Positions 17,715 to 32,512 of a stretch of DNA of 64,000 nucleotides are shown piece by piece. The translations under genes and the position numbers were made by a program. The notes below the pieces were generated by a model. That model worked only from the letters and a program-made list of their open reading frames with translations, had not been told where the DNA came from and ran no database searches. The number at the start of each line of letters is the position of its first letter. Positions within the stretch are counted from its first letter, which is position 1. The stretch is taken from positions 1-64,000 of IMG/VR virus record IMGVR_UViG_3300034349_000079. One strand, written 5' to 3'. The stretch is from a virus (lineage: Duplodnaviria; Caudoviricetes).

Positions 17715-18738
17715 CGTTTTTCAGTAAGTACTCGTTGTTAATAACCTTAAATGACGTCGCACCATCTGCCGATTTGAATACCAACCCTTCAATTGAAGGC
17801 ATAGAAGGAAATTTTGTCCGGTTAATTAACTCCGGCAAAGCTAGAATTGATTCCATATCTGTAATACCTAATTCAGGCAGTGTAAAATTCAACCCAAGAG
17901 TAGGAACATGGTTCAAAAAATGTGCTTCGCAAAATGCCGTACGTTCAATATGCGGTAAATAACACTGGTTGTCAATATCCCAAATGTCAAAGATGTAAAT
18001 TTGTACATTGAGATAACCTGCTCTATTTCTTTGAACCCCTGGTCCTGCAAGTTCTCCTTGTACTGCAAGATTTCGACCACAGGCTTCTAGTGCCTTAATG
18101 ATCCCTGAATTCTGTGCCGCATGTATGAACGCATTCCCTGAATTTTCGGGATCCATTTTTAGATCTATGTTGTGAGAACAGACTCCAACTACTCCATCTT
18201 TTAAATAGCCTGTTATTGAACTTCCATCAACTTTCAGAGAGATTTCATACTTAGTCTCTTGGTCAAGTAGTACCTCAGGAATATTTTGTATACGCGTTTG
18301 ACTTGTGCGATGTACAAAATATGGAAAATTGCCTTTACCTAAACCCCTCATATTTTCGGGTAGTGCGCGCTCCCACTTAAGCACGCCGAGTAGCTCAGTG
18401 AGGTCCATGCCCTCGACAAATTTGGCATGCGGCCAATCAGGAAGTTTTAGCAGCAGTCCCTGTGATAATTGTCCACGTAAGCGAACTGTACGTAGTCTTT
18501 CACCTTGAACTTCTTCAAAAACCTTTGGAGAATGCCCAGGTTTTGTAAGAAATGGAGCGAGTTCTGTTGGTACCCAACTATCCACCTCAAAATATAGCAC
18601 TAATTCATCGGTCTTAAAATCATCTTTTTTTACAACACACATCCAGCCATCTACTCTGGCGACCTGGATACTATCCGCGCCTTCAATTGGATTAATTTCT
18701 GCGATACGTCGTATTGTTGCTAGTCTTCTCTCAGACAT
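17707..18738 (-). CDS. RNA ligase, Rnl2 / DRB0094 family
   Basis: N-terminal OB domain (LRTVRLRGQLSQGL), KVDGSS, QGELAGPGVQ, EGLVFK, SFKVINNEYLLK. Confidence 0.9.
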   Translation of the reverse strand: MSERRLATIRRIAEINPIEGADSIQVARVDGWMCVVKKDDFKTDELVLYFEVDSWVPTELAPFLTKPGHSPKVFEEVQGERLRTVRLRGQLSQGLLLKLPDWPHAKFVEGMDLTELLGVLKWERALPENMRGLGKGNFPYFVHRTSQTRIQNIPEVLLDQETKYEISLKVDGSSITGYLKDGVVGVCSHNIDLKMDPENSGNAFIHAAQNSGIIKALEACGRNLAVQGELAGPGVQRNRAGYLNVQIYIFDIWDIDNQCYLPHIERTAFCEAHFLNHVPTLGLNFTLPELGITDMESILALPELINRTKFPSMPSIEGLVFKSADGATSFKVINNEYLLKNDG

Positions 18739-27065: not shown

Positions 27066-28673
27066 TTAAATTTTCTCCGCGATGAAATCGGACACAATCT
27101 GAGGAAGGCTCGCATCAGCCCCAACGCAGTCCAGCATTCCGGAGTCTTTTGGATCAGCGATTGTGAAATTAGTCGCAGTCAAGCCCATGACTACTAACTT
27201 CACGTCGTGGCCTACTTGCTGGCGGTATTCGCGCAAAGCTTGTACTGGCTGAATACGGCCGGCGTAAGTCTCTGAATCCGTCGCGATAATTACAGTCTCA
27301 AAGTTCCGTTGCTTCTGTTTAGCCCAAACCACGGGGAGACTGCAATCAGTTCCGCCGAACGGTAATCGATTAGTTTGGCGAATTATATCGTCTAAGCGTT
27401 GTTTAGGGCTGATGTTGAGCGGAATAAAAGACGTCGAAAAGGCCATGAACTCGTAGTCTTCTTCCAGACGCGCGACTGCCATAGCAAAGGCAACAGAGGC
27501 AGTTCTTGCAGTCATATGCGTTCCTGCGACCATGCTACCGTCCATCGAGCCGCTGACATCCATGGCAAACAGGATTTTCTTTCCTGTCGGAGCAACGTTT
27601 TTGAAAGATAGGTAGAAAGCCGCATCCAGAGCATCTACTATCTTTTGAACCGGAGTCCAAGTTAAAGAACCTTTTACACCGCGCCCTGCCTGATAGGTTG
27701 TAAGAGCCAGAAGGATTGAGAAAGGATGTACACGCGCTTTTTGTAAAGCTTCTGCATCCTGTAGTTTGGAGATCACCAACTTTGTTGCTTCGCTATTTGG
27801 TTGAAGTAAGCCAATATTCGTCATCTTCGATAAGTTTCTAAGCGCCGCATGGAGTGGCATCTTTTGGAGCAAGGCTTCCCAGACGGAGACGCTATTGAGC
27901 CAGGTATTCGGAACCATCTCTCTTGTGAGCCCAAAATCATTTATCAGCGCGATATTTGGCTTATCTGGGCTAGCCATTGCCTTGATATGAGCTTGGACAG
28001 TTTGTGGAAGCATTGACTCATCCGCAACTACTTTTCCAACCGCCCACTTGAATAGATCATTCATTTCAGCATCTTTTGGGACTGGATGCGCCATACGTAG
28101 TGCGTCTTTTGTGGACCAGTCGTTACGAGTGCGATACTTGGTGAATTGATAGCCGAGTTGATCTGGGGTCTTGGATGTATACCACGAGGCAACAGTTTCG
28201 CGTAAAACACGTCCCCAGCCTCTAAGTGGATTCACATAGCTGATGAACTCAAACAAATGGCTCTGAGTCCGTACTACAGAAGAAAATACTTTCATGGCTT
28301 CATGACGTACAGGCAGAGTTCCATGCGAGAAGGCCAAGGCCAAAGCAAACAAGGTTGGACTTACTTTAGGACCCCTGCCTTCCACCGAGATTTGCTTGAG
28401 TAGCTGAATAGCTTCAACACCGATGTCTGAAGGAGCGGAGAAAATATCTACGGCTACTTTAGCGTTGTCCTTAGTCAGTTTCTGTTCTGTTGCGTAGTAT
28501 GTACCTCCGGAACTTCCAAGAATAAGAAAACGTTCGAACTGTTTAAGTGGAGAAATTGTAAAGGTCATGCCATGGGCATTGTTAAGCGACATTTCCCGTT
28601 CTCTACCAGGAATGACCTGCGTTTGTGGAGTTGTAGAATATGAGCGAGCGAAGTTTGCGTACGGACCGGACAT
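27066..28673 (-). CDS. rsr: Ro60/Rsr TROVE-domain RNA-binding protein
   Basis: RFLILGSSGGTYY, GWGRVLR, KYRTRNDWSTKDALRMAHP, MPLHAALRNL, vWA DVSGSM, GGTDCSLP, TDSET. Confidence 0.95.
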   Translation of the reverse strand: MSGPYANFARSYSTTPQTQVIPGREREMSLNNAHGMTFTISPLKQFERFLILGSSGGTYYATEQKLTKDNAKVAVDIFSAPSDIGVEAIQLLKQISVEGRGPKVSPTLFALALAFSHGTLPVRHEAMKVFSSVVRTQSHLFEFISYVNPLRGWGRVLRETVASWYTSKTPDQLGYQFTKYRTRNDWSTKDALRMAHPVPKDAEMNDLFKWAVGKVVADESMLPQTVQAHIKAMASPDKPNIALINDFGLTREMVPNTWLNSVSVWEALLQKMPLHAALRNLSKMTNIGLLQPNSEATKLVISKLQDAEALQKARVHPFSILLALTTYQAGRGVKGSLTWTPVQKIVDALDAAFYLSFKNVAPTGKKILFAMDVSGSMDGSMVAGTHMTARTASVAFAMAVARLEEDYEFMAFSTSFIPLNISPKQRLDDIIRQTNRLPFGGTDCSLPVVWAKQKQRNFETVIIATDSETYAGRIQPVQALREYRQQVGHDVKLVVMGLTATNFTIADPKDSGMLDCVGADASLPQIVSDFIAEKI

Positions 28674-28712
28674 AATAACACCTTAACGTTGGTTGGTTGG
28701 TTGGTTGAAAGA

Positions 28713-28773
28713 AGGGCTAATTAATTATCAAACGGTTTATCATTACAGGTGGTAACGTTTGAAAATCGGCCCT
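28713..28773 (-). ncRNA. Y RNA-like element Y1
   Basis: AGGGCCGA-stem-TTACC...TTAGCCCT. Confidence 0.75.
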
Positions 28774-28783
28774 AAAAAAGAGA

Positions 28784-28858
28784 AGGCTAAAAGCGTCAAA
28801 GAGGATTTTCATAGTCTGACGACTAAGTCATGGAAGATAATTCTCTGACTACGGCCCT
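28784..28858 (-). ncRNA. Y RNA-like element Y2
   Basis: AGGGCCGT-N10-TTATC...TTAGCCTT. Confidence 0.75.
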
Positions 28859-28865
28859 AAAACGG

Positions 28866-28939
28866 GGTGAGTGACGGGCTTCGGACCCGTATTTCTAGGA
28901 ATCACAGTCCTAGGCTTTACCAATTAAGCTACACTCAAC
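28866..28939 (-). tRNA. trnH: tRNA-His(GTG)
   Basis: TAGGA-CTGTGAT-TCCTA, G-1/C73; atypical TCCGAAG T-loop. Confidence 0.85.
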
Positions 28940-28948
28940 ATTTGGAGC

Positions 28949-29063
28949 GGGCAAAGCGCTGTGTTTGAGAGTTCAAGGTCTACAAGTATCTCGGTTGTAG
29001 CCTAGTCTTTAATTCGAATGGTTAGTTCGGATGTTGTCAAGATAATCAAACACTATCGGCCCC
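28949..29063 (-). ncRNA. Y RNA-like element Y3 (long form, two internal hairpins)
   Basis: GGGGCCGA-TAGTGTTTGA-TTATC...TCAAACAC..TTTGCCC. Confidence 0.7.
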
Positions 29064-29145
29064 AGAAACATTTGCATAGTTTATTCGGCAAGCTCCTACT
29101 ATGCTAGGAGTTTCACGGCCAGTCCTAGTTAGAACTGTCCTTGCC

Positions 29146-29457
29146 TTATTTTGGTAAAACGCTCGCAGCAAGCTGGTTGATGCTGCGTAAGAAAAGCAAA
29201 CGCGTTCTTGGATAAGTCCACTTTAGCCAATGTCTCTCGTTTGTTGGATCTCCTATCTCTTCAGACAGAATCATCCGCCATATTTGTGCTGGAGTGTACT
29301 TATGAATGTAGTTTTGATCCCGCGCTGCTTGGGCACTTACTACATGTCCGTGCATAATAGCTCTACGAATAGCCTTACGAACGGGGTCACTTTTATTATA
29401 TCGAGAATGATACAAATGATCTTTTGACATTGGCCTCTGATGAGAGCACCTACTCAT
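29146..29457 (-). CDS. hypothetical protein
   Basis: GAGGT RBS before MSRCSHQ. Confidence 0.6.
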   Translation of the reverse strand: MSRCSHQRPMSKDHLYHSRYNKSDPVRKAIRRAIMHGHVVSAQAARDQNYIHKYTPAQIWRMILSEEIGDPTNERHWLKWTYPRTRLLFLRSINQLAASVLPK

Positions 29458-29837
29458 AGTAGACCTCTGATTATTTCCTACATTTTCAACTAGCTTGCGG
29501 AGTATATTCGCTAGAAGCAACAAGCCGCCCCCGTGGTCCTAAAATTGAGTACACGAGCCTCCCGCCTGGCATTTTAGTAGGTTAAAACCCCCTGAAAAAA
29601 TTCGTCACCTGTGGGGTTATTTATCCTAGCATATTCTCCCACCGGTCTTCTTACAAGCCGAGGTGTGGCAAACGGATAAAGGGCGTTTTGTAAGACAAGC
29701 CCTTTAACAACTCTCTCACCTAAATGATCAATTTCTTGAGCGATGATGACAAAACGGTACTACCATAGAGATTTTTATTTTAATCCCCGGCCCTAAAGAC
29801 CGTTGGCTTTTCTTATTAGACGATGGTAGCATTAGTT

Positions 29838-29912
29838 TGGCGACCCTGCGGGGTTTCGAACCCCGGTAATGTGATAGACAATCACATGTCCTAGCCTTTA
29901 GACGACAGAGCC
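29838..29912 (-). tRNA. trnD: tRNA-Asp(GTC)
   Basis: TGTGA-TTGTCTA-TCACA, G73, CCA. Confidence 0.9.
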
Positions 29913-29921
29913 ATATTTTGT

Positions 29922-29981
29922 AGGGCTAAAGATAGTTTTGCTGTTTGATCGCCTAATGATAAAGCAAAACTGGACGGCCCT
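29922..29981 (-). ncRNA. Y RNA-like element Y4
   Basis: AGGGCCGT-AGTTTTGCT-TTATC...AGCAAAACT-ATCTTTAGCCCT. Confidence 0.75.
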
Positions 29982-29986
29982 GAAAT

Positions 29987-30116
29987 TGGTGGAGTAGCCT
30001 CGATTTGCACGAGGATCGTTCATTTTACAGATGAGAATACATCACTATCGTACCGGGTTTGGACGGTCAAGATGTTGCAATGCACTTTTAACGCTCTACT
30101 ATTAAGCTACTACTCC
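29987..30116 (-). ncRNA. tRNA-Tyr(GTA)-like RNA with a 56-nt Y-module insertion in the anticodon stem
   Basis: complete acceptor, D and T arms and CCA; removing the insert gives GTTCAT-CTGTAAA-ATGAAC. Confidence 0.75.
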
Positions 30117-30122
30117 AGAAAT

Positions 30123-30187
30123 TGGCGCGAAAATAAGGGATAATCTACCGGCCGTGTTTGGCTAAAGATGTAGGTCCCGTTTTCGCA
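30123..30187 (-). ncRNA. circularly permuted Y-like RNA with CCA end (P1)
   Basis: TGCGAAAA/TTTTCGCG-CCA outer stem; inner ATCTTTAGCC-loop-GGCCG...TTATC. Confidence 0.65.
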
Positions 30188-30192
30188 TTGTT

Positions 30193-30259
30193 TGGTGCGA
30201 AATAAATAAACTCCACCGGCCAGTGGTTATAGGTGGGATCCTAGTCTAAATATTCCGCA
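30193..30259 (-). ncRNA. circularly permuted Y-like RNA with CCA end (P2)
   Basis: TGCGGAATA/TATTTCGCA-CCA; inner TAACC-ACT-GGCCG. Confidence 0.55.
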
Positions 30260-30264
30260 TTGTT

Positions 30265-30340
30265 TGGTAGCGAGGGCGCGATTCGGACGCGCGATCTTAG
30301 GTTTATGAGACCCATGAGATAACCACTTCTCCACCTCGCT
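30265..30340 (-). tRNA. trnM: tRNA-Met(CAT), initiator-like body
   Basis: TGGGT-CTCATAA-ACCTA, CCA. Confidence 0.85.
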
Positions 30341-30473
30341 AAATTTTAAGTGTCTCTAGATCAATATTTCTATTTCTATCTTACGCCCGCGAGCGGTAGA
30401 TGGCTACTTATAGAACAAGACCTTGTTAATTCCCTAGAGACCGATCAAGGCTATTCCGTTTTACTCATATATT

Positions 30474-30525
30474 CGGTGGACATCAACGGGGTTGAACCGT
30501 TCACTACCGTCGTAGCTTAATGTCC
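30474..30525 (-). ncRNA. 52-nt tRNA minihelix-like RNA
   Basis: GGACATT/GATGTCC-A-CCG, AACGG-TTCAACC-CCGTT T-arm, one 4-bp hairpin between them. Confidence 0.55.
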
Positions 30526-30534
30526 GTAATTAGT

Positions 30535-30656
30535 TGGGACTGAGAGGTTTCGAACCTCTGACATGCTGTTGTGATAATACACCAAATCCGGACTATTTGT
30601 CAAGTTTGGATGGCGCATGTTTTTGACGGCTGCTCTACCAGCTGAGCTACAGTCCC
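30535..30656 (-). ncRNA. tRNA-like RNA with a 47-nt Y-module insertion in the anticodon stem
   Basis: GGGACTG/CAGTCCC, GCTC/GAGC D-arm, AGAGG/CCTCT T-arm; insert contains CTTGAC/GTCCGG helix. Confidence 0.7.
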
Positions 30657-30667
30657 ATTTAAAAAGG

Positions 30668-30817
30668 TGAGGGGAGCAGGTTTCGAAGCTGCAATTTCAC
30701 TATTAAGTGAACCGGTTCCTATTATTATGTAAGTCTATCGACCCATTTGTAATGGGTAAATATATCGATATACAATTTTATATATACCGGTGCGTCTACC
30801 AATTTCGCCATCCCCTC
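30668..30817 (-). ncRNA. tRNA-Leu-like RNA with a ~62-nt Y-module insertion in the anticodon loop
   Basis: Leu-type D-arm and variable arm, CCGGT/ACCGG stem; insert contains TTTACCC/GGGTCGA bulged helix. Confidence 0.7.
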
Positions 30818-30822
30818 ATAAC

Positions 30823-30898
30823 TGGCTCCGAAAAGAGGTTTCGAACCTCTGACAAACTGCTTAACAGGCAGCTACTCTACCAACTGAGTTATATCGGA
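30823..30898 (-). tRNA. trnN: tRNA-Asn(GTT)
   Basis: GCTGC-CTGTTAA-GCAGT, G73, CCA. Confidence 0.9.
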
Positions 30899-30916
30899 TT
30901 AGTGCAGAGGATTATA

Positions 30917-30945
30917 ATAATAATCTAAATCCTCGTGAAAGTCAA
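30917..30945 (-). promoter_or_regulatory. sigma70-type promoter driving the tRNA/Y-RNA cluster
   Basis: TTGACT-17 nt-TATTAT upstream of tRNA-Asn. Confidence 0.6.
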
Positions 30946-31043
30946 ATGCTTTCTCCTGTATGTTGTCGATCAAAGCGAAAAGTTCTTCGTCTGAAATGTC
31001 ATCGTTAAATAGTTCGTTGTCTATCATTTTTATACACGTTGTG

Positions 31044-31118
31044 TGGTCGGCGCCGAGGGAATCGAACCCCCTTAGTCATGGTCCCAAACCATGCGATCAG
31101 CCAATGAACCAGGCACCG
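31044..31118 (-). tRNA. trnP: tRNA-Pro(TGG)
   Basis: CATGG-TTTGGGA-CCATG, CCA. Confidence 0.9.
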
Positions 31119-31125
31119 AGATGGA

Positions 31126-31185
31126 AGGGCTAGTTAGTTATGCTGGGGTTGTATCTTAGAAGGATAACCCATCAAGAACGGCCCT
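31126..31185 (-). ncRNA. Y RNA-like element Y5
   Basis: AGGGCCGT-N10-TTATC...CTAGCCCT. Confidence 0.7.
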
Positions 31186-31385
31186 AAAATCAAAACGCGC
31201 TTACATGGAGACGTCTAGAATTCTCCTAGTGGGTTACACCACGTTTTTCTGTAAAGTAAGCGCCTCATCATCCTAGAATAGTGTGGTTAATGTTGCTTTT
31301 ACACCACAAGGTTTTATTGTAGCAACCCTTCAGCTAGTCATTAATATTACCGTTCGTCAGACTAGCAGTTGAGAACGAGTATTCT

Positions 31386-31461
31386 TGGAGCGGACACGGA
31401 AAGAATCAAACTCCGGTCATTAGCTTGGAAGGCTAAGGTAATATCACTATACGATATCCGC
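31386..31461 (-). tRNA. trnG: tRNA-Gly(TCC)
   Basis: TTAGC-CTTCCAA-GCTAA, U73, CCA; bulged T-stem. Confidence 0.85.
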
Positions 31462-31471
31462 AAAAAACGGT

Positions 31472-31531
31472 TGGGATAATTGATTTATCATGCGAGTGTC
31501 AGTAATTTAGGTAACGCACGACTTCGTCCCA
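31472..31531 (-). ncRNA. Y RNA-like element Y6
   Basis: TGGGACGA-N9-TTACC...TTATCCCA (compensatory C-G to A-U change). Confidence 0.7.
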
Positions 31532-31537
31532 GAAACT

Positions 31538-31627
31538 TGGTGTATGGTAGTTGATTCGAACAACTGTGGGCCATCAAGACCAACGGATTTACAGTCCGTC
31601 CCCGTCAACCAGCTTGGGTAACCATAC
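31538..31627 (-). tRNA. trnY: tRNA-Tyr(GTA)
   Basis: ACGGA-CTGTAAA-TCCGT, long variable arm, CCA. Confidence 0.9.
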
Positions 31628-31677
31628 AAGTAAGTAATAGTACCACATTTTGTCACAATGTGGTACTACGGTTTCGC

Positions 31678-32040
31678 TCAATCCCGAATGAGCTCAACGT
31701 ATTTGATATACTCGCCGAGCACTTCGACAACGACATCTGCGTCGATGCTATCCCCGCTATTAACGTTTTTGCGTAGCCAAGTTTGAACGGCATACGGGAG
31801 AGCGTCTTCCTTGAAGCTCAACACGACGCAGATTTCACCGTCCTCCGGAGGGTCAAACTCCCTGAAAAGAAGCTTATTCAGGTTTGCAACCAGGTCAGTC
31901 CCGTCATCGCACATGTCTTCGAAGAAGTCGTTATCTTCAGCGAATTCCAGAGCTGTGATAATCGCGGTCTTAAGCGTGGCGAGCTCGAGCTTTACACTAT
32001 CGATCTCAGCGTTAAGATCAGCTTTATTCTTCTCAGCCAT
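31678..32040 (-). CDS. hypothetical protein
   Basis: GGAG RBS before MAEKNK. Confidence 0.65.
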   Translation of the reverse strand: MAEKNKADLNAEIDSVKLELATLKTAIITALEFAEDNDFFEDMCDDGTDLVANLNKLLFREFDPPEDGEICVVLSFKEDALPYAVQTWLRKNVNSGDSIDADVVVEVLGEYIKYVELIRD

Positions 32041-32242
32041 GTTGCTTCTCCGGGAACTTGCTGTAGAGCCAGGTGGCGGCATTGACCGGCCATTGGAGGG
32101 CGATCTTGAAGGAGTTTTGCGCCGAAATACCCTGGCTCTTGTGGATATAGCCACCACGAACGAGAGCGATGAAGGCATAGATTAAGAAAAGGTCGCCAAA
32201 TGCGAACATAGTGTTGGATCTCAGGTTGTAGGTTGTGGGTTG

Positions 32243-32512
32243 TCAGGCAGCGAGTGCAGCAGCTGCTGCACCAGGGCCGTTGTCGCGGTCGTATAGCCGA
32301 GGATCGAGGCTATCGCCTTCAATTTCGACTCTCATAACGCGGCCATGAACATAGTCAAAATAGTTGTATTGGTCTAACAGGCTTCTGGCTTCTTCCTCCG
32401 TCATGGGCGCAGGATCGAAGTGCAAGATATCCAGGCCAAGAGGCTTAGCCGCATCGTAGAGCTTGCGTAGAACATCTACCTTGTCAAGTCCAGAAATGTC
32501 GATGTCTGTCAT
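32243..32512 (-). CDS. conserved phage hypothetical protein
   Basis: IDISGLDK..VL..LY...YFDYVHGRVM...LYDRDNGPGAA pattern recognised from phage proteins. Confidence 0.7.
   Translation of the reverse strand: MTDIDISGLDKVDVLRKLYDAAKPLGLDILHFDPAPMTEEEARSLLDQYNYFDYVHGRVMRVEIEGDSLDPRLYDRDNGPGAAAAALAA

What the first reader, a model, noticed from the sequence alone, without database searches (positions are those of the whole stretch)
30535..30656. Second tRNA-Y chimera, with the insert at the same 28/29 position
Removing 47 nt after G27-C28 gives a perfect GCTGT/ACAGC anticodon stem with an atypical 9-nt loop (TATATCACA). The insert forms CAAACTTGAC/GTCCGGATTTG with a bulged C, essentially the GUCCG/UUGAC Ro site. 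It shares CTTGAC, TCCAAAC and CCGG with the Tyr insert. An independent tRNA body with the same graft site argues for a selected architecture.
Basis: partly seen in the sequence, partly recalled or inferred. Interest (0 to 1): 0.8.

Follow-up and report, generated by a model that had tools for sequence, protein, structure and literature searches.

The report
tRNA-shaped Y RNA beside phage Ro60
This phage gene makes a small RNA with the body of a normal tRNA whose anticodon loop is replaced by a hairpin carrying the docking helix for the phage's own Ro60 protein; it belongs to a widespread family that I could not find described in the literature, and it is not a decoding tRNA with an insert at position 28/29.

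Summary
The gene is real. It lies on the minus strand at 30656-30535 (122 nt) and scores 46.9 bits on Rfam tRNA. The acceptor, D and T arms are perfect, and 56 nt sit between the two strands of the anticodon stem. A full-length Ro60 gene (27066-28673, minus strand) lies 1.9 kb downstream.

A covariance model built only from six other phages picks this insert as the second-best hit in the window (18.6 bits, E about 0.01). Its middle A-U pair is a compensatory change from the family's C-G.

The "28/29 graft" and the 9-nt decoding loop are not supported for this RNA. The UGU they need lies in a conserved, strongly covarying 8-bp helix, and the layout matches relatives in which a contiguous 27-31/39-43 stem encloses the module. 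The neighbouring Tyr chimera does have the 28/29 split, so the two RNAs represent different sub-designs.

Best reading: a non-decoding Y RNA in tRNA order, a circular permutation of YrlA, that docks phage Ro60. Binding itself is untested.

Other agents of this scan reported the same class on other DNA (notes from at least 19 genomes). I found no paper that describes it.

The parts
30650..30656 (-). acceptor stem, 5' strand (RNA nt 1-7)
   Evidence: Seven Watson-Crick pairs with 30536-30542.
30632..30647 (-). D arm (nt 10-25) with A14, G15, G18, G19 and A21
   Evidence: Rfam tRNA alignment; 4-bp stem.
30626..30630 (-). closing (anticodon) stem, 5' strand GCCGU (nt 27-31)
   Evidence: Pairs with 30565-30569 at 4 of 5 positions, with a C29.A41 mismatch. 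It is homologous to the stem of the neighbouring tRNA-Asn. Twelve relatives have 5 of 5 contiguous pairs.
30619..30625 (-). 7-nt A-rich 5' linker CAAAAAC (nt 32-38)
   Evidence: Relatives have an A-rich linker of the same length, for example L043:1882-2018.
30611..30618 (-). outer helix, 5' strand (nt 39-46)
   Evidence: Eight pairs with 30577-30584; pair probability 0.6-0.9. All 8 pairs covary across the family.
30599..30603 (-). Ro-type helix, 3'-strand equivalent UUGAC (nt 54-58)
   Evidence: R1 alignment. Family consensus is UUGCC.
30594..30598 (-). 5-nt capping loop AAAUA (nt 59-63)
   Evidence: Sequence. Relatives have variable loops or extra hairpins at this position.
30588..30593 (-). 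Ro-type helix, 5'-strand equivalent GUC[C]GG, with the bulged C at 30590 (nt 64-69)
   Evidence: R1 alignment. The family has a nearly invariant U.G next to the bulge (54 of 59 rows), and the A57-U65 pair of this RNA is a compensatory change at the pair that is C-G in 51 rows.
30577..30584 (-). outer helix, 3' strand (nt 73-80)
30573..30577 (-). UUAUC motif (nt 80-84)
   Evidence: Conserved as (G)UUAYC at the 3' edge of every module. It corresponds to the YUAY of YrlA (PMC4201824).
30565..30569 (-). closing stem, 3' strand ACAGC (nt 88-92)
30543..30559 (-). T arm (nt 98-114)
   Evidence: A 21-nt stretch (RNA nt 94-114, the last four variable-region bases plus the whole T arm) is identical to tRNA-Asn at 30834-30854.
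30535..30542 (-). acceptor stem, 3' strand plus discriminator A; no encoded CCA
27066..28673 (-). phage Ro60 (TROVE + vWA) gene, the presumed protein partner
   Evidence: PF05731 at 78.8 and 62.4 bits. Full-length match to human and Xenopus Ro60 and to D. radiodurans Rsr, E 1e-105 to 1e-114.

Best explanation
The gene encodes a non-decoding, tRNA-shaped Y RNA.

Shown from sequence and comparison:
- It has a complete tRNA body with normal 5'/3' connectivity.
- A 5-bp anticodon-type stem closes around a 56-nt module instead of a 7-nt loop.
- The module runs: 7-nt linker, 8-bp outer helix, asymmetric internal loop, Ro-type bulged helix (UUGAC / GUC[C]GG) capped by 5 nt, then UUAUC.
- This order of elements is the circular permutation of YrlA, with the acceptor stem open and the Ro stem closed.

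Inferred:
- The bulged helix docks the phage's own Ro60.
- The tRNA body lets RNase P, RNase Z and the CCA-adding enzyme cut the RNA out of the tRNA/Y-RNA cluster transcript and stabilise it.
- The tRNA body also offers a tRNA-like surface to a second partner, as proposed for YrlA. Bacterial and Thermus-phage Y RNAs are reported to tether Ro60 to PNPase.
- It does not read codons.
For: (1) tRNA body: Rfam tRNA 46.9 bits, with all tertiary-contact positions present.

(2) Ro60 lies 1.9 kb downstream on the same strand.

(3) Model R1 was built from six modules of other phages only. In the window its top hits are 30723-30774 (18.8 bits, E 0.009) and this insert at 30573-30617 (18.6 bits, E 0.011), both aligned end to end.

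(4) Over 79 other Ro60 loci, R1 gives 58 hits at E<=1. All are on the Ro60 strand and nearly all lie within about 1.5 kb of the gene. Of the 57 checked (an identical duplicate left out), 33 sit inside a normally ordered tRNA body with 6-7 of 7 acceptor pairs, mostly 7.

(5) Covariation: 90.6% of cells are paired against 67.3% in shuffles; 186 cells have changes on both sides against 58.7; 0 of 500 shuffles reach these values; slid controls give 32-51%.

(6) The A-U pair in this RNA's Ro helix is compensatory to the family's C-G, which makes the helix identical to the vertebrate GUCCG/UUGAC core (PMC4201824).

(7) No single excision restores a 7-nt loop with U33.

(8) Six linear mini-Y RNAs in the same cluster share the layout G-rich Ro strand, 9-11 nt, UUAYC.

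(9) Published precedent: phage Ro60 binds Y-like RNAs encoded next to it (PMC12135203), and M. smegmatis YrlA is cut by RNase P and receives CCA (PMC4201824).
Against: No binding or expression data exist. Thermodynamics alone prefers a different apical pairing (UCC:GGA plus ACU:AGU); the Ro-type helix has a probability of at most 0.10.

This copy is a weak family member. It scores 18.6 bits against 20-55 for most relatives. It has GUCCGG instead of GGCCGA, so it does not match GNCGAAN0-1G. It has ACA where relatives have GGA before the closing stem, a C.A mismatch in the closing stem, and no encoded CCA, although seven of the ARAGORN tRNAs of the window, including five of the six in this sub-cluster, encode it.

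Alignment A5 was fitted to the model, which favours pairing.
Confidence: 0.7

Rival explanations
1. A decaying or inactive paralogue. It was once a working tRNA-shaped Y RNA (or a tRNA-Asn copy that acquired the module) and no longer binds Ro60.
For: It has the lowest-range R1 score. It deviates from the family at the Ro strand, at the GGA motif and in the closing stem, and it has no encoded CCA.
Against: The acceptor, D and T stems are all perfect and the tertiary positions are intact. The deviation in the Ro helix is compensated on both strands. The 8-bp outer helix is intact.
Confidence: 0.12
2. An intron-bearing pre-tRNA. The module would be cut out and the halves rejoined, for example by the phage Rnl2-type RNA ligase, to give a working tRNA.
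For: Excision restores perfect tRNAs for the neighbouring Tyr chimera and for the Leu chimera at 30668-30817. An RNA ligase gene lies at 17740-18252.
Against: For this RNA, no excision gives a 7-nt loop with U33. No bacterial or phage enzyme for such splicing is known. The module is a conserved, covarying Ro60-linked element that is also found without any tRNA around it.
Confidence: 0.06
3. One reading: the module is grafted between nt 28 and 29, leaving a GCUGU/ACAGC stem with a 9-nt loop that might decode or frameshift.
For: Five of five Watson-Crick pairs after removing nt 29-75. The 28/29 split is real in another sub-type of the family, with at least eight relatives at 5 of 5, and in the Tyr chimera.
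Against: Pair probability is 0.003-0.005 and the fold costs 18 kcal/mol more than the MFE. The UGU belongs to the covarying outer helix. The 5' and 3' spacings (39 and 13 nt) match the contiguous-stem sub-type, not the split sub-type (32-34 and 17-19 nt). The 9-nt loop would contain the conserved UUAUC motif.
Confidence: 0.03
4. The insert doubles as, or is mainly, an internal sigma-70-type promoter (TTGACA, 18 nt, TATTAT at 30603-30574) that drives the downstream RNAs.
For: It is the only match of 11 or more of 12 in the whole 64-kb window. Both hexamers coincide with the places where this copy departs from the family consensus.
Against: About one such match per window is expected by chance (1.05 in shuffles). 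The Ro strand and UUAUC motifs resemble the two hexamers anyway. Relatives do not keep promoter spacing. The spacer is 18 nt.
Confidence: 0.05

Closest known systems
YrlA (Y RNA-like A, Rfam RF02553; Chen et al. 2014 PMC4201824; Wang et al. 2018, 10.1101/312249)
   Same: Encoded beside a Ro60/Rsr gene. Both have a T arm, a D arm and an acceptor-type stem with tRNA tertiary positions; a Ro-type strand followed by a stem strand and a YUAY/UUAUC motif leading toward the T arm; and no anticodon loop.
   Different: The connectivity is circularly permuted. Here the 5' and 3' ends are in the acceptor stem, as in a real tRNA, and the Ro helix is closed by a loop. In YrlA the ends form the Ro stem and the acceptor-like stem is a closed hairpin. 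A 5-bp anticodon-type stem is kept. RF02553 gives no hit here at E<=1. Cultured actinophages carry the canonical form (52.1 bits in Gordonia phage Forza), and model R1 does not hit them.
Vertebrate Y RNAs (Ro60 site GGUCCGA / UUGAC; Stein et al. 2005 as cited in PMC4201824)
   Same: The bulged-C helix has the same core letters, GUC[C]G paired to UUGAC, with a G.U next to the bulge.
   Different: Here the helix is a capped hairpin at the tip of a tRNA arm, not the terminal stem of a linear RNA. The last pair is U.G instead of U-A.
Linear phage Y-like RNAs: Yrl1 and Yrl2 of Thermus phage phiLo (PMC12135203) and the six ~60-nt mini-Y RNAs of this window
   Same: They lie upstream of the phage Ro60 gene and have the same two-helix layout with a CG(A)-containing internal loop and UUAYC.
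   Different: Those RNAs are stand-alone, with free ends at the Ro stem. This one is embedded in a tRNA body.
Engineered tRNA scaffold for recombinant RNA (Ponchon and Dardel 2007; cited from my own knowledge, not checked here)
   Same: A structured RNA replaces the anticodon loop of a tRNA, so that tRNA processing and stability are borrowed.
   Different: This one is natural, conserved and linked to a specific protein partner.

Membership tests
tRNA (RF00005) | Cloverleaf body scoring above the Rfam gathering threshold | tested here: met
   46.9 bits against 29.
tRNA (RF00005) | 7-nt anticodon loop with U33 and a purine at 37 | tested here: not met
   56 nt lie between nt 31 and 39. No single excision restores such a loop. 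Standard ARAGORN does not call it.
YrlA / Y RNA | Encoded next to a Ro60/Rsr gene | tested here: met
   Ro60 at 27066-28673 on the same strand, 1.9 kb downstream.
YrlA / Y RNA | Ro-strand motif GNCGAAN0-1G (bacterial) or GGUCCGA (vertebrate) | tested here: inconclusive
   This RNA has GUCCGGA. It contains the vertebrate core GUCCG but fails GNCGAA. Several relatives have GCCGAAG or GUCGAAG, which fit the motif.
YrlA / Y RNA | Bulged helix formed with a complementary UUGAC-type strand | tested here: met
   Aligned by R1. The helix covaries in the family and this RNA's A-U pair is compensatory. It is not favoured by free energy alone.
YrlA / Y RNA | tRNA-like D and T arms with tertiary-contact nucleotides | tested here: met
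   U8, A14, G15:C48, G18, G19, U54, U55, C56, A58 and G53:C61 are all present (alignment; sequence).
YrlA (RF02553) | 5' and 3' ends form the Ro stem and the acceptor-like stem is a closed hairpin; score at or above 69 bits | tested here: not met
   Connectivity is that of a tRNA. There is no RF02553 hit at E<=1 in 28500-32500. In relatives the model only hits across the junction of two adjacent units, below threshold at 35-38 bits.
YrlA / Y RNA | Physical binding to Ro60 | not testable with these tools
   Needs RIP, EMSA or a structure.
tRNA-ordered Y module family (defined here and in earlier notes of this scan) | Module (outer helix, Ro helix, UUAYC) inside a normally ordered tRNA body next to Ro60 | tested here: met
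   R1 at 18.6 bits over positions 1-48 of 48. The spacings equal those of L043:1882-2016 and L080:6990-7122.

The most novel reading that the evidence does not exclude
The tRNA-ordered Y RNAs are handled as tRNAs: processed, given a CCA end and, for those that keep an anticodon hairpin, recognised by synthetases or by anticodon nucleases. They would then bring Ro60, and through it an exonuclease or the phage RNA ligase, to tRNA-handling machinery. That would make them decoys or repair platforms against tRNA-cleaving host defences. This copy, which has no anticodon, would be the pure tether version.
Probability: 0.12. Interest if true: 0.9.

Novelty: new variant of a known kind. Interest (0 to 1): 0.66.

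Why it matters
Y RNAs and Ro60 are conserved from bacteria to humans, yet the purpose of the tRNA-like half of bacterial Y RNAs is still unknown. A natural version with true tRNA ends, recurring next to Ro60 in many uncultured phages, has three consequences.

- Ro60 partner RNAs would be made and trimmed by the ordinary tRNA machinery.
- It gives a concrete intermediate for how YrlA arose from tRNA.
- Some "odd tRNAs" or "tRNAs with introns" in phage genomes would in fact be protein-docking RNAs.

It also supplies defined constructs for binding and structural work.

Tried and rejected
- **Close relatives of this phage.** None was reachable. Megablast against cultured phages found nothing, two viral-contig scans found nothing, and the 100%-identical Ro60 entry has no retrievable contig. 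The best other Ro60 is 53% identical. All comparisons therefore use distant relatives.
- **Rfam.** It reports only tRNA here. There is no YrlA, Y_RNA or ribozyme hit at E<=1.
- **ARAGORN in intron mode.** It calls this gene "tRNA-Phe(aaa)" with a 29-nt intron and a long extra arm. I rejected that call because it has A at position 33 and no support from relatives.
- **MAFFT alignments A2 and A3.** The helices were out of register, so I did not use them for a model.
- **Motif counts.** Counts of Ro-like motifs in the window are not significant on their own.
- **R1 on the whole 83.6-kb record.** Run through the genome search at E<=0.001, it returned nothing, because the window hits sit at E about 0.01.
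- **RtcB.** Absent from the record.
- **Two reviews by the Wolin laboratory.** Not held in the paper library, so my literature check is incomplete.

Full report
WHAT IS THERE

The window is part of an 83.6-kb uncultured virus record. The minus strand from 31627 to 28700 holds a dense run of tRNA genes and small structured RNAs, directly upstream of a 535-aa ORF at 27066-28673.

That ORF is a full-length Ro60. Pfam TROVE scores 78.8 and 62.4 bits. It matches human and Xenopus Ro60 and D. radiodurans Rsr end to end, with E from 1e-105 to 1e-114.

The finding's coordinates are exact. Nucleotides 30656 to 30535 give a 122-nt RNA that scores 46.9 bits on Rfam tRNA, while standard ARAGORN skips it. 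Its features are:
- a 7-bp Watson-Crick acceptor stem;
- a 4-bp D stem and a 5-bp T stem;
- U8, A14, G15:C48, G18, G19, U54, U55, C56 and A58;
- discriminator A, with no encoded CCA.

A 21-nt stretch covering the last four variable-region bases and the whole T arm is identical to the neighbouring tRNA-Asn. Between GCCGU (nt 27-31) and ACAGC (nt 88-92) lie 56 nt.

The arithmetic is right. Removing nt 29-75 is the only single excision that gives five Watson-Crick pairs, and it leaves the 9-nt loop AUUAUCACA.

Energetically the fold is poor: -22.6 kcal/mol against -40.6 for the MFE. The split stem has a probability of 0.003-0.005.

The MFE instead keeps GCCGU/ACAGC, with a C.A mismatch, and builds an 8-bp helix from nt 39-46 and nt 73-80. 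That helix uses the UGU the split stem would need. The inner Ro-like pairs GAC:GUC reach a probability of only 0.10.

RELATIVES

No close relative of the phage was retrievable; the next best Ro60 is 53% identical. A Ro60 profile recovered 80 viral loci out of 522 matches.

ARAGORN in intron mode then found 119-170-nt tRNA-like genes with 26-92-nt "introns" in many of these loci, nearly all just upstream of Ro60. Aligning them shows a common module:
- a stem strand;
- CUUGCC;
- a variable cap;
- GGGCCG(A/G);
- the complementary stem strand;
- GUUAUC.

The 8-bp outer helix has a different sequence in almost every member.

INDEPENDENT TEST

I built covariance model R1 from six modules of other phages only: 48 positions and 13 pairs, with nothing from this window.

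With filters off, its two best hits in the 128 kb of window sequence are the Leu-like chimera (30723-30774, 18.8 bits, E 0.009) and this insert (30573-30617, 18.6 bits, E 0.011). Both align over all 48 positions. The Tyr chimera comes sixth at 11.7 bits. The calibration is short, so these E-values are rough.

Across 79 other loci, R1 gives 58 hits at E<=1. Every one is on the Ro60 strand and nearly all lie within about 1.5 kb of the gene.

On the resulting alignment:
- 90.6% of cells are paired, against 67.3% in shuffles;
- 186 cells carry changes on both sides, against 58.7;
- 0 of 500 shuffles reach either value;
- sliding the partners drops pairing to 32-51%.

The alignment was fitted to the model, which favours pairing. 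The slide control and the strand and position bias do not depend on that.

The family's Ro helix is UUGCC / GGC[C]GA, with a nearly invariant U.G beside the bulged C. In this RNA the middle C-G pair has become A-U on both strands. This is a compensatory change, and it makes the helix letter for letter the vertebrate core GUCCG/UUGAC quoted in PMC4201824. Its proposed outer extension (CAAA/UUUG) is replaced by the conserved 8-bp helix.

WHERE THE MODULE SITS

The family has sub-types.

- **Split sub-type.** The module lies between nt 28 and 29, and an intact anticodon hairpin with U33 and R37 follows. Examples are Asn in L027:4351-4475, Ile in L059:269-391, Thr in L063:4618-4748, Arg in L031:4301-4429, Lys in L042 and L043, and the Tyr chimera of this window. 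At least eight have 5 of 5 split pairs. The module starts 32-34 nt from the 5' end, and UUAYC lies 17-19 nt before the T stem.
- **Contiguous sub-type.** A contiguous 27-31/39-43 stem closes around the module and there is no anticodon hairpin. Twelve relatives have 5 of 5 contiguous pairs and the stem covaries. The spacings are 36-48 nt and 13-19 nt.
- **Stemless sub-type.** There is no anticodon stem, and UUAUC runs straight into the T arm. An example is L044:4766-4862.
- **Linear form.** The module also occurs as linear mini-Y RNAs in tandem.

This RNA has spacings of 39 and 13 nt, the same as L043:1882-2016 and L080:6990-7122. It has a 7-nt A-rich linker like L043. Its stem is homologous to that of tRNA-Asn. 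It therefore belongs to the contiguous sub-type. The claim of "the same 28/29 graft site as the Tyr chimera" does not hold, and the Leu chimera is different again, with its insert between nt 33 and 34.

This copy is a divergent member. It has ACA where relatives have GGA, a C.A mismatch in the closing stem, GUCCGG rather than GGCCGA, and a low-end R1 score.

RELATION TO KNOWN RNAS

Read from the cap of the Ro hairpin, the order of elements is: Ro strand, stem strand, UUAUC, T arm, acceptor, D arm, stem strand, Ro partner strand. This is exactly the order Chen et al. give for YrlA (GNCGAAN0-1G, YUAY, T, AS, D; PMC4201824). Wang et al. call YrlA a circularly permuted tRNA with a closed acceptor stem (10.1101/312249).

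Here the permutation is undone: the acceptor stem is open and the Ro stem is closed.

Rfam YrlA does not hit this RNA. In relatives it hits only across the junction of two adjacent units, below threshold. Cultured actinophages carry the canonical form, and R1 does not hit it.

Published work provides precedent:
- phage Ro60 binds adjacent Y-like RNAs and host PNPase (PMC12135203);
- M. smegmatis YrlA is cut by RNase P and receives CCA (PMC4201824);
- a Ro60-like phage protein counters a defence system, and its authors guess that nearby "tRNAs" may be Y RNAs (PMC11482910).

I found no paper describing the tRNA-ordered form. Two reviews were not available.

Other agents of this scan reported the same class in other genomes. 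I reached the reading from my own searches before I saw those notes.

MECHANISM AND RIVALS

Best reading (0.70): a non-decoding Y RNA that docks phage Ro60 through the capped bulged helix. The tRNA body would supply processing, stability and a second binding surface. Binding and expression are both inferred.

Rivals:
- an inactive, decaying copy (0.12);
- a spliced pre-tRNA (0.06), which no excision can produce here, although an Rnl2-type ligase gene exists at 17740-18252;
- an internal sigma-70-type promoter (0.05). TTGACA-18-TATTAT at 30603-30574 is the only match of 11 or more of 12 in the window, but about one such match is expected by chance.

VERDICT

This is a new variant of a known kind: Y RNA/YrlA in tRNA order, contiguous-stem sub-type.

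Noticed in passing
window 30341-30534 (-): The spacer between this RNA and tRNA-Met holds another small tRNA-like element: a 6-bp terminal stem (GGACAU/AUGUCC) followed by ACC, a 4-bp tetraloop hairpin, and a T-arm-like hairpin with loop UUCAACC. No tool calls it.
   Followed up: no
window 31531-31472, 31185-31126, 29981-29922, 29064-28947, 28858-28783, 28773-28713 (-): Six linear mini-Y RNAs, mostly about 60 nt. Each has a 4-5-bp terminal stem, a CG(A/U) internal loop, an upper stem of 7-9 bp and a loop beginning UUAYC. The defining pattern occurs 6 times here against 1.8 expected in the whole window.
   Followed up: partly
window 29987-30116 (-) and 30668-30817 (-): Two more tRNA-ordered chimeras. 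The Tyr-type has the module between nt 28 and 29 and an intact CUGUAAA loop. The Leu-type has a 62-nt module between nt 33 and 34, and removing it restores a UAG loop. The three chimeras in one cluster use three different insertion points.
   Followed up: partly
window 30603-30574 (-): The best sigma-70-like promoter match of the whole window (TTGACA, 18 nt, TATTAT; 11 of 12) lies inside the Y module, made from the Ro partner strand and the UUAUC region.
   Followed up: partly
window 28864-31627 (-): The tRNAs nearest Ro60 include all four with GUN anticodons (His, Asp, Asn, Tyr). This is the set cleaved by colicin E5-type anticodon nucleases (from my own knowledge). It may be chance.
   Followed up: no
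window 17740-18252 (-): An Rnl2-family RNA ligase domain (PF09414, 73.3 bits) in a 346-aa frame, about 10 kb from the Ro60 cluster. No RtcB in the record.
   Followed up: partly
window 31395-31461 (-) and 29758-29830 (-): Two weak tRNA-like genes, at 32.9 and 25.9 bits on Rfam tRNA. The first has a UCC loop and a truncated T arm.
   Followed up: no
L059:269-529 and L031:4024-4280: Adjacent tRNA-ordered units have near-identical acceptor stems. [quoted passage not shown] Rfam YrlA hits exactly these junctions, at 37.9 and 35.1 bits against a threshold of 69. This may be a route between the two topologies.
   Followed up: partly
L092:2078-2148 (Mycobacterium phage Sparky): A weak R1 hit (12.4 bits) in an unannotated gap between tRNA-Ser and tRNA-Pro, upstream of the Ro gene of a cultured phage.
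   Followed up: no
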